DNA of 64,000 bases from Escherichia coli. Its GTDB lineage: Bacteria > Pseudomonadota > Gammaproteobacteria > Enterobacterales > Enterobacteriaceae. Made by a program: the position numbers and the translations under genes. Within the stretch, counting starts at the first letter, position 1. Each line of letters starts with the position of its first letter. This document shows, in pieces, positions 15,915 through 57,018 of the stretch. The notes beneath the pieces are model-generated. The model was not told where the DNA came from. It saw nothing but the letters and a program-made list of their open reading frames with translations, and ran no database searches. The DNA lies in NCBI RefSeq assembly GCF_001677475.2, contig NZ_CP015229.1. One strand, written 5' to 3'.

Positions 15915-17288
15915 ATGGCACTTTGGGGCGGGCGTTTTACCCAGGCAGCAGATCAACGGTTCAAACAATTCAACGACTCACTGCGTTTTGATTACCGTCT
16001 GGCGGAGCAGGATATTGTTGGCTCTGTGGCCTGGTCCAAAGCCCTGGTAACGGTCGGTGTGCTGACCGCAGAAGAACAGGCGCAACTGGAAGAGGCGCTG
16101 AACGTGCTGCTGGAAGATGTTCGCGCCAGGCCACAACAAATCCTTGAAAGCGACGCCGAAGATATCCATAGCTGGGTGGAAGGCAAACTGATCGACAAAG
16201 TGGGTCAGTTAGGCAAAAAACTGCACACCGGGCGTAGCCGTAATGATCAGGTAGCGACTGACCTGAAACTGTGGTGCAAAGATACCGTTAGCGAGTTGCT
16301 GACGGCTAACCGGCAGCTGCAATCGGCGCTGGTGGAAACCGCACAAAACAATCAGGACGCGGTAATGCCAGGTTACACTCACCTGCAACGCGCCCAGCCG
16401 GTGACGTTCGCTCACTGGTGTCTGGCGTATGTTGAGATGCTGGCGCGCGATGAAAGCCGTTTGCAGGATGCGCTTAAGCGTCTGGATGTCAGCCCGCTAG
16501 GCTGTGGCGCGCTGGCGGGAACAGCCTATGAAATCGACCGTGAACAGTTAGCAGGCTGGCTGGGCTTTGCTTCGGCGACCCGTAACAGTCTCGACAGCGT
16601 TTCTGACCGTGACCACGTGCTGGAACTGCTTTCTGCTGCCGCTATCGGCATGGTGCATCTGTCGCGTTTTGCTGAAGACCTGATCTTCTTTAACACCGGC
16701 GAGGCGGGGTTTGTGGAGCTTTCTGACCGCGTGACTTCCGGTTCATCATTAATGCCGCAGAAGAAAAATCCGGATGCGCTGGAGCTGATTCGCGGTAAAT
16801 GCGGTCGGGTGCAGGGTGCGTTAACCGGCATGATGATGACGCTGAAAGGTTTGCCGCTGGCTTACAACAAAGATATGCAGGAAGACAAAGAAGGTCTGTT
16901 CGACGCGCTCGATACCTGGCTGGACTGCCTGCATATGGCGGCGCTGGTGCTGGACGGCATTCAGGTGAAACGTCCGCGTTGCCAGGAAGCGGCTCAGCAG
17001 GGTTACGCCAACGCCACTGAACTGGCGGATTACCTGGTGGCGAAAGGCGTACCGTTCCGCGAGGCGCACCATATTGTTGGTGAAGCGGTGGTGGAAGCCA
17101 TTCGTCAGGGCAAACCGCTGGAAGATCTGCCACTCAGTGAGTTGCAGAAATTCAGTCAGGTGATTGACGAAGATGTCTATCCGATTCTGTCGCTGCAATC
17201 GTGCCTCGACAAGCGTGCGGCAAAAGGCGGCGTCTCACCGCAGCAGGTGGCGCAGGCGATTGCTTTTGCGCAGGCGCGGTTGGGGTAA
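15915..17288 (+). CDS. argH: Argininosuccinate lyase
   Basis: 457-aa [19 protein letters not shown].. Confidence 0.96.
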
Positions 17289-17311
17289 GAACATTTATAT
17301 GTACAAATTTG

Positions 17312-17340
17312 AGCCTGGCTTATCGCCGGGCTTTTTTATG
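17312..17340 (+). terminator. Intrinsic terminator of argCBH
   Basis: Hairpin gcctggcttatcgccgggc followed by TTTTTT. Confidence 0.6.
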
Positions 17341-17342
17341 GC

Positions 17343-17459
17343 AAAAAAAAGCGGATCCTGGAGATCCGCAAAAGTTCACGTTGGCTTTAGTTATTCGAGT
17401 TGAGAAACTCTCGAAACGGGCAGTGACTTCAAGGGTTAAAAGAGGTGCCGCTCCGTTTC
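17343..17459 (-). ncRNA. oxyS: OxyS small regulatory RNA (about 109 nt plus U-tail)
   Basis: Minus strand reads GAAACGGAGCGGCACCTCTTTTAACCCTTGAAGTCACTGCCCGTTTCGAG..GCGGATCTCCAGGATCCGC then a U-run; divergent from oxyR. Confidence 0.93.
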
Positions 17460-17554
17460 TGTGAGCAATTATCAGTCAGAATGCTTGATAGGGATAATCG
17501 TTCGTTGCTATGCTACCTATCGCCGCGAACTATCGTGGCAATGGAGGATGGATA
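17460..17554. promoter_or_regulatory. oxyS/oxyR divergent promoter region with OxyR binding site
   Basis: Position between the oxyS 5' end and the oxyR start; exact operator not delimited. Confidence 0.55.
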
Positions 17555-18472
17555 ATGAATATTCGTGATCTTGAGTACCTGGTGGCATTGGCCGAACACC
17601 GCCATTTTCGGCGTGCGGCAGATTCCTGCCACGTTAGCCAGCCGACGCTTAGCGGCCAAATTCGTAAGCTGGAAGATGAGCTGGGCGTGATGTTGCTGGA
17701 GCGGACCAGCCGTAAAGTGTTGTTCACCCAGGCGGGAATGCTGCTGGTGGATCAGGCGCGTACCGTGCTGCGTGAGGTGAAAGTCCTTAAAGAGATGGCA
17801 AGCCAGCAGGGCGAGACGATGTCCGGACCGCTGCATATTGGTTTGATTCCTACGGTTGGACCGTACCTGCTACCGCATATTATCCCGATGCTGCACCAGA
17901 CATTTCCAAAGCTGGAAATGTATCTGCATGAAGCACAGACCCACCAGTTACTGGCGCAACTGGACAGCGGCAAACTCGATTGCGTGATCCTCGCGCTGGT
18001 GAAAGAGAGCGAAGCATTCATTGAAGTGCCGTTGTTTGATGAGCCAATGTTGCTGGCTATCTATGAAGATCACCCGTGGGCGAACCGCGAATGCGTACCG
18101 ATGGCCGATCTGGCAGGGGAAAAACTGCTGATGCTGGAAGATGGTCACTGTTTGCGCGATCAGGCAATGGGTTTCTGTTTTGAAGCCGGGGCGGATGAAG
18201 ATACACACTTCCGCGCGACCAGCCTGGAGACGCTGCGCAACATGGTGGCGGCAGGTAGCGGGATCACTTTACTGCCAGCGCTGGCTGTGCCGCCGGAGCG
18301 CAAACGCGATGGGGTTGTTTATCTGCCGTGCATTAAGCCGGAACCACGCCGCACTATTGGCCTGGTTTATCGTCCTGGCTCACCGCTGCGCAGCCGCTAT
18401 GAGCAGCTGGCAGAGGCCATCCGCGCAAGAATGGATGGCCATTTCGATAAAGTGTTAAAACAGGCGGTTTAA
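17555..18472 (+). CDS. oxyR: LysR-family peroxide-sensing regulator OxyR
   Basis: ORF-track 17510..18472 trimmed to Met at 17555 ([23 protein letters not shown]..), 305 aa. Confidence 0.95.
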
Positions 18473-20184: not shown

Positions 20185-21351
20185 ATGATCGAACACTATA
20201 TTCGAGGGTTTGAGGAAGAACTGCGTGAGATCCGCCATCAGATCCACGAAAACCCGGAGCTGGGATTACAAGAATTTAAAACCAGTGCTTTGGTGGCGGA
20301 AAAGCTGCGTCAGTGGGGCTATGAAGTAGAGCAAGGACTGGCGACGACGGGGATAGTGGCCACGTTAAAAGTGGGCGACGGAGAGAAAAGTATTGGCCTG
20401 CGGGCGGATATGGATGCGCTGCCAATTTATGAAAATAGTGGCAAGCCCTGGGCCAGTAAACATCCTGGTTTAATGCACGCCTGCGGGCATGACGGGCATA
20501 CCACCATACTGCTGGGGGCCGCGCGTTATTTTGCCGAAACCCGCCGTTTTAACGGCACGTTACGTCTTATCTTCCAGCCTGCGGAAGAGATGATTAACGG
20601 CGGTGAGATCATGGTTAAAGAGGGGCTTTTTGATCATTTCCCCTGCGATGTCATTTTCGGCATGCATAACATGCCCGGTCTGCCGGTGGGTAAGTTTTAT
20701 TTCCAGCCAGGGGAACTGATGGCGTCAATGGATCAGTTCCATATTACAGTTCGTGGTTGTGGCGGACACGGTGCGATCCCGCACAAAGCCATCGATCCGG
20801 TGCTGGTTGCCGCACATATCACCACCGCATTACAAAGCATTGTGTCGCGCAATGTCGATCCGCTGGAAGCGGCGGTAATTACCGTCGGCAGCATTGTTGC
20901 GGGTGAGGCGGCTAACGTCATTCCTGACAGTGCTGAGATGAAAATCAGCGTCCGCTCTCTTAGCCGCGATACCCGACAACTTCTTCTGACCCGTATTCCT
21001 GCTCTGGCACAAACCCAGGCTGCCAGCTTTGGTGCTACGGCTGAGGTTACGCATGTTAACGGTACACCGGTATTAGTGAATGACGAGGAGATGGCGCGCT
21101 TCGCCTGGCAGGTGGCGTGTAAAACGTTTGGTGAAGATCGGGCCGAGTTTGGCATCAAGCCCCTGATGGGCAGTGAGGATTTCTCTTTCATGCTGGAAGC
21201 CCAGCCGAAAGGCGCTTTTTTGCTGTTCGGTAATGGCGATGTCGGGGAAGGTTCCTGCATGGTGCATAACCCGGGTTACGACTTCAACGATGCAAGTCTG
21301 GTCCCGGCATGCAGCTACTGGGGCGCACTGGTAGAAGCTTGGCTGCAATAA
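20185..21351 (+). CDS. M20D-family metal-dependent amidohydrolase (hippurate hydrolase / N-acyl-amino-acid deacylase-like)
   Basis: 388-aa ORF; HACGHDGH metal-binding signature; GGAGG-like RBS (aaaggaa) upstream; no signal peptide. Confidence 0.8.
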   Translation: MIEHYIRGFEEELREIRHQIHENPELGLQEFKTSALVAEKLRQWGYEVEQGLATTGIVATLKVGDGEKSIGLRADMDALPIYENSGKPWASKHPGLMHACGHDGHTTILLGAARYFAETRRFNGTLRLIFQPAEEMINGGEIMVKEGLFDHFPCDVIFGMHNMPGLPVGKFYFQPGELMASMDQFHITVRGCGGHGAIPHKAIDPVLVAAHITTALQSIVSRNVDPLEAAVITVGSIVAGEAANVIPDSAEMKISVRSLSRDTRQLLLTRIPALAQTQAASFGATAEVTHVNGTPVLVNDEEMARFAWQVACKTFGEDRAEFGIKPLMGSEDFSFMLEAQPKGAFLLFGNGDVGEGSCMVHNPGYDFNDASLVPACSYWGALVEAWLQ

Positions 21352-21393
21352 ATAAAACAACACACAACAACACTTTTTGGCAAGGAACATGGA

Positions 21394-22710
21394 ATGACGG
21401 CGATCGTAAATGAAACCGTGAGTGTGAAGAAAAAGCCCAGCGGTAAGCGGGTGATTTTTGCTTCGGCGTTTGGCAATGCGCTCGAATTTTTTGATTTTGG
21501 CGTTTACAACTTTTTTGTGGTCTATATCAGTACGCTTTTCTTCCCACCCAGCGCTGATCACAATGTCGCGCTGTTACTGGCATTTGCAACATTTGGCGTG
21601 AGTTTTTTTATGCGCCCGCTTGGTGGAATTATCGTCGGGGCCTGGGCCGATCGCTTCGGACGCAAACCCGCGATGGTGTTCACCATTGCCCTGATGAGCC
21701 TCGGTACACTGATGATCGGCATCGCACCGACGTATGAAACGGCGGGCTATTGGGGAACCGCGACGCTGGTGCTGGCGCGTCTAATTCAGGGCGTTGCGGC
21801 AGGAGGCGAAGTCGGTGCCTCAATGTCTTTGTTGGTTGAATCAGCTCCGGCAAATCGTCGCGGCTTTTACAGCAGTTGGTCACTGGCGACTCAAGGCCTG
21901 GCAACAACCTTTGGTGGTGTTGTCGCTTTAGGTTTAAGCGCATGGCTGCCCTTTGCGACAGGTTCAGAAACCGTAATGGCTGAATGGGGCTGGCGTGTGC
22001 CATTTTTTATTGGCGTGTTATTAGCACCTATCGGTTGCTGGTTGCGTCTGAGCCTGGAAAATGACGTACCTGAGCTAGTGCGCAATAAAAAAGCTGCTAC
22101 CAGCGAAAGCGCGTTCTCTCTGCTCCTGCAACATAAGGCGACTATCGTTAACGGCGTTTTACTCGCTATTGGTAGCACGGTCGCAACCTATATCTCCCTC
22201 TTTTATTACGGCACCTGGGCGGCGAAGTATCTGGCGATGCCTCAACATTATTCTCATGCAGCGATGTTACTGGCGGGCGTTATTACGTTTGTGGGTGCGC
22301 TGCTTGTGGGGATGTTGTGCGATTCGGTCGGGCGTAAAAAGCTGATTTTAATCTCCCGTGTGATGGTGCTGATCTGTAGCTGGCCGTCATTCTGGCTGTT
22401 GGTGAATTACCCAAGCCCTGGCATGTTGCTGACGGTGGTTTTCGTGATGGTCAGCTTTACCACGCTTGGCGGTGTGCCGGTAATGTTGCTGATCTCTGAA
22501 CTGTTGCCGAAACGGATTCGGGCATTGGGTTTTGCGCTGGTTTATAGCATTGGTGTGGCAATCTTTGGCGGTTTTGCTCAATATTTCGCTACGCAATCCA
22601 TCGTGTTGCTGGATAGTTTGACAGCTCCGGCGTGGTATTTGGGTGGAGGCACGTTGCTGTCGATGCTGGCGTTGTTGTACGTAAAAGAACCGGCCAAAGA
22701 ATTGCAGTAA
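21394..22710 (+). CDS. Major facilitator superfamily permease, metabolite:H+ symporter (MHS) type
   Basis: 438-aa hydrophobic ORF; [13 protein letters not shown] (GxxxDRxGRK) motif; 42 bp after the amidohydrolase, same strand. Confidence 0.8.
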
Positions 22711-24963: not shown

Positions 24964-25091
24964 GATGTATCCTGAAAAATTAAAGTACGCGGCGATTGTA
25001 GGGATTGCTCATCAGATGTCCAGATCTTGATGAATTCCTATTTGTGAGCTACGTCTGGACAGTAACTTGTTACAACCTGTAGCATCCACTT

Positions 25092-25331
25092 GCCGGTCCT
25101 GTGAGTTAATAGGGAATCCAGTGCGAATCTGGAGCTGACGCGCAGCGGTAAGGAAAGGTGCGATGATCGCGTTATGCGGACACTGCCATTCGGTGGGAAG
25201 TCATCATCTCTTAGTATCTTAGATACCCCTCCAAGCCCGAAGACCTGCCGGCCAACGTCGCATCTGGTTCTCATCATCGCGTAATATTGATGAAACCTGC
25301 GGCATCCTTCTTCTATTGTGGATGCTTTACA
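25092..25331 (+). promoter_or_regulatory. Adenosylcobalamin riboswitch in the btuB 5' leader
   Basis: About 240-nt leader GCCGGTCCTGTGAGTTAATAGGGAATCCAGTGCGAATCTGGAGCTGAC.. with B12-box-like CCCGAAGACCTGCCGGCC. Confidence 0.88.
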
Positions 25332-28351: not shown

Positions 28352-29893
<1,542 letters not shown>

Positions 29894-29978
29894 CCTTAAA
29901 GAACTGTGCTTTGCAGTGCTCACACAGATTGTCTGATAGAAAGTGAAAAGCAAGGCGTCTTGCGAAGCAGACTGATAC

Positions 29979-30054
29979 GTCCCCTTCGTCTAGAGGCCCA
30001 GGACACCGCCCTTTCACGGCGGTAACAGGGGTTCGAATCCCCTAGGGGACGCCA
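29979..30054 (+). tRNA. gltT: tRNA-Glu (UUC) in the 16S-23S spacer
   Basis: GTCCCCTTCGTCTAGAGGCCCAGGACACCGCCCTTTCACGGCGGTAACAGGGGTTCGAATCCCCTAGGGGACGCCA. Confidence 0.98.
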
Positions 30055-30247
30055 CTTGCTGGTTTGTGAGTGAAAGTCACCTGCCTTAATATCTCAAAAC
30101 TCATCTTCGGGTGACGTTTGAGATATTTGCTCTTTAAAAATCTGGATCAAGCTGAAAATTGAAACACTGAACAACGAAAGTTGTTCGTGAGTCTCTCAAA
30201 TTTTCGCAACACGATGATGAATCGAAAGAAACATCTTCGGGTTGTGA

Positions 30248-33150
<2,903 letters not shown>

Positions 33151-33243
33151 ACAACGCCGAAGCTGTTTTGGCGGATTGAGAGAAGATTTTCAGCCTGATA
33201 CAGATTAAATCAGAACGCAGAAGCGGTCTGATAAAACAGAATT

Positions 33244-33363
33244 TGCCTGGCGGCCGTAGCGCGGTGGTCCCACCTGACCCCATGCCGAACTCAGAAGTGA
33301 AACGCCGTAGCGCCGATGGTAGTGTGGGGTCTCCCCATGCGAGAGTAGGGAACTGCCAGGCAT
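33244..33363 (+). rRNA. rrfB: 5S ribosomal RNA
   Basis: TGCCTGGCGGCCGTAGCGCGGTGGTCCCACCTGACCCCATGCCGAACTCAG..GGAACTGCCAGGCAT; 120 nt. Confidence 0.99.
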
Positions 33364-36994: not shown

Positions 36995-37070
<76 letters not shown>

Positions 37071-37078
37071 TCAAGTCC

Positions 37079-37163
<85 letters not shown>

Positions 37164-37279
37164 ATTTCGGCCACGCGATGGCGTAGCCCGAGACGATAAG
37201 TTCGCTTACCGGCTCGAATAAAGAGAGCTTCTCTCGATATTCAGTGCAGAATGAAAATCAGGTAGCCGAGTTCCAGGAT

Positions 37280-37354
<75 letters not shown>

Positions 37355-37360
37355 AGATGT

Positions 37361-37436
37361 GCTGATATAGCTCAGTTGGTAGAGCGCACCCTTGGTAAGG
37401 GTGAGGTCGGCAGTTCGAATCTGCCTATCAGCACCA
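37361..37436 (+). tRNA. thrT: tRNA-Thr
   Basis: GCTGATATAGCTCAGTTGGTAGAGCGCACCCTTGGTAAGGGTGAGGTCGGCAGTTCGAATCTGCCTATCAGCACCA. Confidence 0.98.
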
Positions 37437-42532: not shown

Positions 42533-42550
42533 GCCAACCCTTCCGGTTGC

Positions 42551-42606
42551 AGCCTGAGAAATCAGGCTGATGGCTGGTGACTTTTTAGTCACCAGCCTTT
42601 TTGCGC
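42551..42606 (+). terminator. rplL-rpoB intercistronic attenuator
   Basis: Two hairpins (cagcctgagaaatcaggctg; ggctggtgactttttagtcaccagcc) followed by TTTTTGCGC. Confidence 0.75.
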
Positions 42607-54891: not shown

Positions 54892-56965
<2,074 letters not shown>

Positions 56966-57018
56966 TTAGCCCCACACACGGGGCGTTGAATGTAAATTAC
57001 GCGTTAACAGCGTAGAAC

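What the first reader, a model, noticed from the sequence alone, without database searches (positions are those of the whole stretch)
17343..17554. Intact oxyS sRNA back-to-back with oxyR
The minus strand between argH and oxyR encodes an essentially canonical OxyS RNA (GAAACGGAGCGGCACC..GCGGATCTCCAGGATCCGC plus U-tail). Its terminator hairpin lies only a few bp from the argH terminator, giving a compact convergent terminator pair, and its promoter is divergent from oxyR.
Basis: partly seen in the sequence, partly recalled or inferred. Interest (0 to 1): 0.25.

Follow-up and report, generated by a model that had tools for sequence, protein, structure and literature searches.

The report
Standard E. 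coli oxyS small RNA
This is the ordinary, textbook oxyS small-RNA gene of Escherichia coli, base-for-base identical to the laboratory strain K-12 and sitting in its usual place next to oxyR, so nothing about it is new.

Summary
The observation and the interpretation both hold. The minus strand at 17459->17343 encodes OxyS. It matches Rfam RF00035 end to end (139.5 bits against a gathering score of 75, E 4.6e-29). It is 117/117 identical to the annotated K-12 MG1655 gene b4458. The gene lies between argH (15915-17288, +) and oxyR (17555-18472, +) and is transcribed divergently from oxyR. The only match in the 64 kb to the OxyR operator consensus (17497-17533) sits just upstream of the oxyS -35 region. 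oxyS is found in 5425 of 5426 complete E. coli genomes. The published fhlA-pairing loops, the Hfq-binding A-rich linker and the terminator with its U8 tail are all unchanged. Two context points are new to this check but ordinary. (1) The 54-bp argH-oxyS spacer is one of two alleles. About one third of E. coli genomes carry roughly 3.1 kb in its place (manD plus an MFS transporter), bounded by the argH stop codon and the oxyS U-tail. (2) The oxyS-oxyR intergenic region differs from K-12 at five positions. All five avoid the ATAG/CTAT operator elements. Verdict: already known, low interest.

The parts
17343..17459 (-). oxyS gene: OxyS nt 1-109/110 plus the U-tail. The transcription start is G at 17459.
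   Evidence: Rfam RF00035 at 139.5 bits, E 4.6e-29, full model. 117/117 identical to K-12 b4458, record positions 4158278-4158394.
17413..17459 (-). Stem-loop 1 (OxyS nt 1-47). Its loop, nt 22-30 UAACCCUUG (17438->17430), is the published pairing site for the fhlA coding region.
   Evidence: The RNAfold MFE and the Rfam consensus structure both give this helix. Nucleotide numbering and the fhlA contacts are from PMC10578473. The sequence is identical here.
17397..17410 (-). Stem-loop 2 (OxyS nt 50-63).
   Evidence: The RNAfold MFE pairs nt 50-54 with nt 59-63, and the Rfam consensus structure has the same helix.
17386..17395 (-). A-rich linker (OxyS nt 65-74, AAUAACUAAA), the published Hfq distal-face binding site.
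   Evidence: PMC4344510 gives nt 66-72 as AUAACUA and nt 68-74 as AACUAAA. The same letters stand at those positions here.
17343..17369 (-). Stem-loop 3, the intrinsic terminator (nt 91-109, GCGGAUCUCCAGGAUCCGC), plus the U8 tail. Loop nt 98-104 (17362->17356) is the published pairing site for the fhlA ribosome-binding site.
   Evidence: Terminator scan: 8 pairs, 5 of them G-C, followed by T8. RNAfold. PMC10578473.
17468..17473 (-). Candidate oxyS -10 hexamer GATAAT (-14 to -9). No good -35 hexamer lies upstream (TTATCC/TATCCC), as expected of an activator-dependent promoter.
   Evidence: Read directly from the sequence. The sigma-70 scan reports no minus-strand promoter that passes both hexamers. 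The assignment is an inference.
17497..17533 (.). OxyR operator: ATCGTTCGTTGCTAT-GCTACCT-ATCGCCGCGAACTAT, two ATAG-n7-CTAT inverted repeats. A third repeat, ATAGGGATAATCGTT, lies at 17488-17502.
   Evidence: This is the only site in the 64 kb within 6 mismatches of ATAGNTNNNANCTATN7ATAGNTNNNANCTAT. It has 4 of 20 mismatches, and shuffles give 0.1 sites at up to 4 mismatches. PMC5002191 places the repeat centres at -66, -44 and -35 from the oxyS start. The centres here are -67, -45 and -36.
17485..17514 (+). Candidate oxyR promoter (TTGATA-18-TATGCT, with TG upstream), overlapped by the OxyR operator. This is the basis for oxyR autorepression.
   Evidence: Promoter scan. The overlap with the operator is read from the coordinates. 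Autorepression is stated in PMC3378865 and PMC5002191.
17555..18472 (+). oxyR (305 aa), the LysR-type peroxide sensor that activates oxyS.
   Evidence: NCBIfam NF008361 OxyR equivalog, 632.9 bits (cutoff 329), positions 1-305 of 305. RefSeq annotation of the identical DNA.
15915..17288 (+). argH (457 aa), convergent with oxyS.
   Evidence: NCBIfam TIGR00838 at 717.3 bits and NF008964 at 864.2 bits. RefSeq annotation.
17311..17337 (+). argH intrinsic terminator: stem GAGCCUGGC/GCCGGGCUU with a U-run.
   Evidence: Terminator scan. RNAfold gives -17.6 kcal/mol, z -2.93.
17289..17342 (.). The 54-bp argH-oxyS spacer, the cassette-free allele of a two-state polymorphism.
   Evidence: Present in 3555 of 5426 genomes. 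In the two cassette-bearing strains inspected it is replaced by about 3.1 kb carrying manD and an MFS transporter.

Best explanation
This is the canonical E. coli oxyS gene. Shown here: a 109/110-nt RNA plus U-tail is encoded on the minus strand from 17459. It has the three-helix OxyS architecture and an intrinsic terminator. An OxyR operator lies immediately upstream of a promoter with a weak -35. The gene is divergent from oxyR and convergent with argH. Inferred from published work on the identical K-12 sequence: hydrogen peroxide oxidises OxyR. Oxidised OxyR occupies the four ATAG elements next to the oxyS -35 region and switches on oxyS, while the same occupancy covers the oxyR promoter and represses oxyR. 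OxyS then binds Hfq through its A-rich linker (nt 65-74) and its U-tail. It represses translation of targets by base pairing. The best-documented case is fhlA, through a two-site loop-loop contact (nt 22-30 with the coding region, nt 98-104 with the ribosome-binding site). It also represses rpoS translation.
For: Rfam OxyS: full-length match, 139.5 bits against a gathering score of 75, E 4.6e-29. 117/117 identity to K-12 b4458. The predicted fold gives SL1, SL2 and the terminator (-32.9 kcal/mol, z -2.84). The terminator scan hits at 17369-17351 followed by T8. A unique OxyR-consensus site lies at 17497-17533, against 0.1 expected, at the published distances from the start site. The neighbouring ORFs are the OxyR and ArgH equivalogs. 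The same 351 bp is 100% identical in many E. coli chromosomes annotated argH/oxyR. oxyS is present in 5425 of 5426 complete genomes, 4878 of them at 99% identity or more. The published functional nucleotides (PMC10578473; PMC4344510) carry the same letters here.
Against: Nothing found here argues against it. Expression, peroxide induction and target regulation cannot be observed from sequence. The -10/-35 assignment for oxyS is by eye, and the consensus scan did not call a minus-strand promoter. That fits an activator-dependent promoter but is not proof. The intergenic allele differs from K-12 at five positions, and their effect on OxyR binding is untested.
Confidence: 0.98

Rival explanations
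1. The sequence is an oxyS relic. The RNA sequence is intact, but the five changes in the oxyS-oxyR control region have uncoupled it from OxyR, so it is silent or constitutive in this strain.
For: Five differences from K-12 are packed into 37 bp of the control region (17504, 17512, 17525, 17526, 17540), while the 117-nt transcript has none.
Against: All four changes inside the operator fall at unspecified positions of the ATAG-n7-CTAT consensus or in the 7-bp central spacer. The four tetranucleotide elements are untouched, and the site is still the only consensus match in the window. For 848 genomes the best-matching place is at least 99% identical to the 351-bp query, and the same intergenic allele is seen in strain FDAARGOS_536. 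It is therefore a common natural variant, not a lesion. The oxyS -10 region and the transcript are unchanged.
Confidence: 0.015
2. The region's main product is a protein from one of the plus-strand ORFs overlapping oxyS (17164-17403, 17201-17464, 17445-17555, 17461-17568), and the RNA match is incidental.
For: These ORFs appear in the mechanical ORF list.
Against: They are short (35-87 aa). Two of them run out of the argH 3' end in other frames. None is annotated in the RefSeq record or in K-12. The RNA match has E 4.6e-29 with full structure.
Confidence: 0.005

Closest known systems
OxyS RNA of Escherichia coli K-12 (gene b4458; Rfam RF00035)
   Same: The transcript is identical over all 117 annotated bases, with the same strand and the same position between argH and oxyR. 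It has the same terminator and U8 tail, the same fhlA-pairing loops and Hfq linker, and the same OxyR operator architecture.
   Different: Only outside the RNA. There are five substitutions in the oxyS-oxyR control region and one in the argH-oxyS spacer (window C for K-12 T at 17304, read). None touches a specified operator position.
The oxyS locus of cassette-bearing E. coli (e.g. strain FDAARGOS_536, NZ_CP033762.1)
   Same: Identical oxyS, U-tail and oxyS-oxyR intergenic allele.
   Different: Those genomes have about 3.1 kb between the argH stop codon and the oxyS U-tail. It comprises a different hairpin, REP-like sequence, manD and an MFS transporter. oxyS is therefore convergent with the transporter gene, not with argH.
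Other divergent LysR-regulator/sRNA pairs (gcvA-gcvB)
   Same: A LysR-type regulator gene is divergently paired with the small RNA it activates, with inverted-repeat operators in the shared intergenic region (PMC5002191).
   Different: A different regulator, signal and RNA. This is mentioned only as the general architecture and was not tested here.

Membership tests
OxyS RNA (Rfam RF00035) | Scores above the family's curated gathering threshold over the full covariance model | tested here: met
   139.5 bits against 75, model positions 1-110 of 110, E 4.6e-29, no non-canonical pairs flagged.
OxyS RNA (Rfam RF00035) | Sequence identity to the experimentally characterised K-12 OxyS | tested here: met
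   117/117 identical to b4458.
OxyS RNA (Rfam RF00035) | Long 5' stem-loop, a second small stem-loop, a single-stranded A-rich linker, and a 3' terminator hairpin with a U-tail | tested here: met
   The RNAfold MFE reproduces SL1 (nt 1-47), SL2 (nt 50-63) and SL3 (nt 91-109), with z -2.84. The terminator scan agrees. The layout agrees with the NMR-based layout in PMC10578473.
OxyS RNA (Rfam RF00035) | Divergently transcribed from oxyR | tested here: met
   The OxyR equivalog NF008361 (632.9 bits) starts at 17555 on the opposite strand, 95 bp from the oxyS start.
OxyS RNA (Rfam RF00035) | OxyR operator (four ATAG-type elements) adjacent to the promoter | tested here: met
   A unique consensus match at 17497-17533, with 4 of 20 mismatches against 0.1 sites expected. 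Positions agree with PMC5002191 to within 1 nt.
OxyS RNA (Rfam RF00035) | Published target-pairing and Hfq-binding nucleotides present (nt 22-30, 98-104, 65-74) | tested here: met
   The letters at those positions equal those quoted in PMC10578473 and PMC4344510.
OxyS RNA (Rfam RF00035) | Induced by hydrogen peroxide in an OxyR-dependent manner; represses fhlA and rpoS translation | not testable with these tools
   Needs expression and reporter experiments. Inferred from identity to the K-12 gene.

The most novel reading that the evidence does not exclude
The most novel reading not excluded concerns the locus, not oxyS itself. The argH-oxyS junction may be a recurrent recombination boundary. 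A 54-bp allele and a 3.1-kb manD/MFS allele replace each other between the argH stop codon and the oxyS U-tail. The linked five-SNP variant of the OxyR operator and oxyR promoter could quantitatively retune oxyS/oxyR expression in the lineages that carry it.
Probability: 0.05. Interest if true: 0.2.

Novelty: already known. Interest (0 to 1): 0.04.

Why it matters
It matters little beyond correct annotation. OxyS was among the first bacterial regulatory RNAs characterised, and this copy is identical to the reference. One practical point follows. The 25 PGAP-annotated RefSeq E. coli records listed show no feature at oxyS, and among the records inspected only K-12 MG1655 annotates it. A covariance-model pass is therefore needed to label it. 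The accessory-gene cassette that ends at the oxyS U-tail in a third of strains is a reminder that the 3' neighbour of oxyS is not fixed within the species.

Tried and rejected
(1) I looked for anything unusual in the transcript relative to K-12 and found no differences. (2) I asked whether the five intergenic SNPs damage the OxyR operator. They all fall at unspecified or spacer positions and the consensus match survives, so I rejected this. (3) I asked whether the T>G change at 17512, which creates an in-frame ATG at 17510 and a 320-aa ORF, extends OxyR. I rejected this as unlikely. The ATG lies inside the predicted oxyR -10 hexamer, it has no Shine-Dalgarno sequence, and the OxyR equivalog model aligns positions 1-305 of 305 from the ATG at 17555. 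(4) I asked whether the oxyS terminator could act bidirectionally for plus-strand transcripts. I rejected this because the hairpin is followed on the plus strand by AAAAGTTCACG, not a T-run, and the scan calls it on the minus strand only. (5) I asked whether the cassette allele is a simple insertion into the 54-bp spacer. It is not. The 54 bp is undetectable in the other 1871 genomes even with the sensitive blastn setting, so it is a replacement. Only a short TTTATAT similarity remains after the argH stop codon. (6) I did not use the metagenome or genome-collection scans, the large protein searches or structure prediction. The identity of the feature was settled without them and their cost was not justified.

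Full report
**Observation.**
GAAACGGAGCGGCACC begins at 17459. GCGGATCTCCAGGATCCGC runs 17369->17351 and is followed by eight U at 17350->17343. A scan of the whole window against Rfam 15 gives a full-length OxyS match (RF00035) at 17459->17350. The score is 139.5 bits against a gathering score of 75, with E 4.6e-29 and model positions 1-110 of 110.

**Identity.**
The window is Escherichia coli.
- The 351 bases 17250-17600 are 100% identical to many complete E. coli chromosomes, where the flanking genes are annotated argH and oxyR.
- In K-12 MG1655 the ncRNA oxyS (b4458) is annotated at 4158278-4158394. This corresponds exactly to window 17343-17459, and the alignment shows no difference across those 117 bases. 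'Essentially canonical' is therefore an understatement.
- The finding's coordinates run from the annotated 3' end of oxyS (17343) to the base before the oxyR start codon (ATG at 17555).
- NCBIfam confirms the neighbours. The ORF at 17555-18469 is the OxyR equivalog (632.9 bits, cutoff 329, positions 1-305 of 305). The ORF at 15915-17285 is argininosuccinate lyase.

**Anatomy.**
- RNAfold of the 117-nt transcript gives the long 5' stem-loop (nt 1-47), a small second stem-loop (nt 50-63), an unpaired linker and the terminator hairpin (nt 91-109). The energy is -32.9 kcal/mol with z -2.84. This agrees with the Rfam consensus structure and with the NMR-derived layout in PMC10578473.
- With OxyS nt n equal to window 17460-n, the published fhlA-pairing nucleotides are nt 22-30 (UAACCCUUG, 17438->17430) and nt 98-104 (UCCAGGA, 17362->17356).
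- The published Hfq distal-face site is nt 65-74 (17395->17386), containing AUAACUA and AACUAAA.
- All of these carry exactly the letters quoted in the papers.

**Control region.**
- Upstream of the start lies GATAAT (17473->17468, -14 to -9) but no credible -35 hexamer. The sigma-70 scan calls no minus-strand promoter. That is what one expects of a promoter that depends on an activator.
- I scanned the whole window with the OxyR consensus ATAGNTNNNANCTAT-N7-ATAGNTNNNANCTAT. I recalled this motif from Toledano et al. 1994, and its ATAG/heptamer description is corroborated in PMC3378865 and PMC5002191.
- Exactly one site in the 64 kb lies within six mismatches, at 17497-17533. It has 4 of 20 mismatches, against 0.1 sites expected from shuffles.
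- Its two inverted repeats and a third at 17488-17502 are centred at -67, -45 and -36 from the oxyS start. This is within one base of the -66, -44 and -35 reported for E. coli.
- The operator overlaps the plus-strand promoter-like site TTGATA-18-TATGCT (17485-17514). This fits the published autorepression of oxyR.

**The convergent terminators.**
- The argH terminator is a 9-bp stem at 17311-17333 with a U-run to 17337.
- The oxyS terminator stem is 17369-17351, with its U8 tail at 17350-17343.
- The stems are 17 nt apart and the tails are 5 nt apart (ATGGC, 17338-17342).
The transcripts should abut with little or no overlap, which is an inference.

**What the wider comparison adds.**
- oxyS is present in 5425 of 5426 complete E. 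coli genomes, and 4878 of them are at least 99% identical.
- The 351-base query is covered to 80% or more in only 3553 genomes. In the rest the match starts at query base 94, which is window 17343, the end of the U-tail.
- I inspected two such strains. In both, about 3.1 kb lies between the argH stop codon and the oxyS U-tail. It holds a different hairpin, REP-like sequence, manD (D-mannonate dehydratase) and an MFS transporter.
- The window's 54-bp spacer (17289-17342) is found in 3555 genomes and is undetectable in the other 1871. The two states are therefore replacements, not a simple insertion.
- The window carries the short, K-12-like state.

**Differences from K-12.**
- Five differences cluster in the control region: 17504 A>G, 17512 T>G, 17525-6 AT>GC and 17540 G>A.
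- The first four lie inside the operator, but at unspecified positions of the consensus or in the central spacer.
- The change at 17512 turns the oxyR -10 from TATTCT to TATGCT. Both match the consensus at 4 of 6 positions.
- For 848 genomes the best-matching place is at least 99% identical to the query, and the cassette-bearing strain FDAARGOS_536 shows the same intergenic allele. I read this as common natural variation.

**Mechanism.**
- Shown here: an intact OxyS-family gene with an operator, a weak-(-35) promoter and a terminator, in canonical synteny.
- Inferred from published work on the identical sequence: H2O2-oxidised OxyR binds the four ATAG elements and activates oxyS while repressing oxyR. 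OxyS binds Hfq and represses translation of fhlA, through a two-site loop-loop pairing, and of rpoS (abstracts and text).

**Verdict.**
The finding is correct, fully explained and already known. Interest is low.

Noticed in passing
window 17289-17342, compared with L003 2900-6006: The 54-bp argH-oxyS spacer is one allele of a species-wide two-state polymorphism. 3555 of 5426 genomes have it. The other 1871 lack it, and the two such strains inspected instead carry about 3.1 kb with manD and an MFS transporter. The boundaries fall at the argH stop codon and the oxyS U8 tail.
   Followed up: yes
window 17504, 17512, 17525-17526, 17540: Five substitutions relative to K-12 are packed into the oxyS-oxyR control region, while the 117-nt oxyS has none. 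All of them avoid the ATAG/CTAT elements of the OxyR operator. The change at 17512 alters the oxyR -10 from TATTCT to TATGCT.
   Followed up: partly
window 17510-17512: The T>G change at 17512 creates an ATG in frame with oxyR, 15 codons upstream, giving the mechanical ORF 17510-18472 of 320 aa. It lies inside the predicted oxyR -10 hexamer and lacks a Shine-Dalgarno sequence, so it is probably not used.
   Followed up: partly
window 20185-22710: Two accessory genes lie between sthA and fabR: an M20-type amidohydrolase (TIGR01891, 358.9 bits) and an MFS metabolite/proton symporter that RefSeq calls a citrate-proton symporter. They are present in strain FDAARGOS_536 and absent in strain A15. 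The window therefore has this island but lacks the manD cassette.
   Followed up: partly
window 17343-17459 and its RefSeq counterparts: The PGAP-annotated RefSeq E. coli records listed (25 rows, all showing feature 'none') carry no feature at oxyS. The K-12 MG1655 record annotates it.
   Followed up: no
window 25077-25266, 28352-33361, 36995-37433, 42537-42598, 56867-56967: Other Rfam hits are consistent with the E. coli chromosome region around argH-oxyR-btuB-rrn-tufB-thiC. They are a cobalamin riboswitch, a full rRNA operon with a spacer tRNA and StyR-44, a cluster of four tRNAs, a P26 match and a TPP riboswitch on the minus strand.
   Followed up: no
and summary lines: Two of the oxyS and spacer matches are on records labelled as plasmids rather than chromosomes. 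I did not inspect them. They could be mislabelled replicons or assembly artefacts.
   Followed up: no
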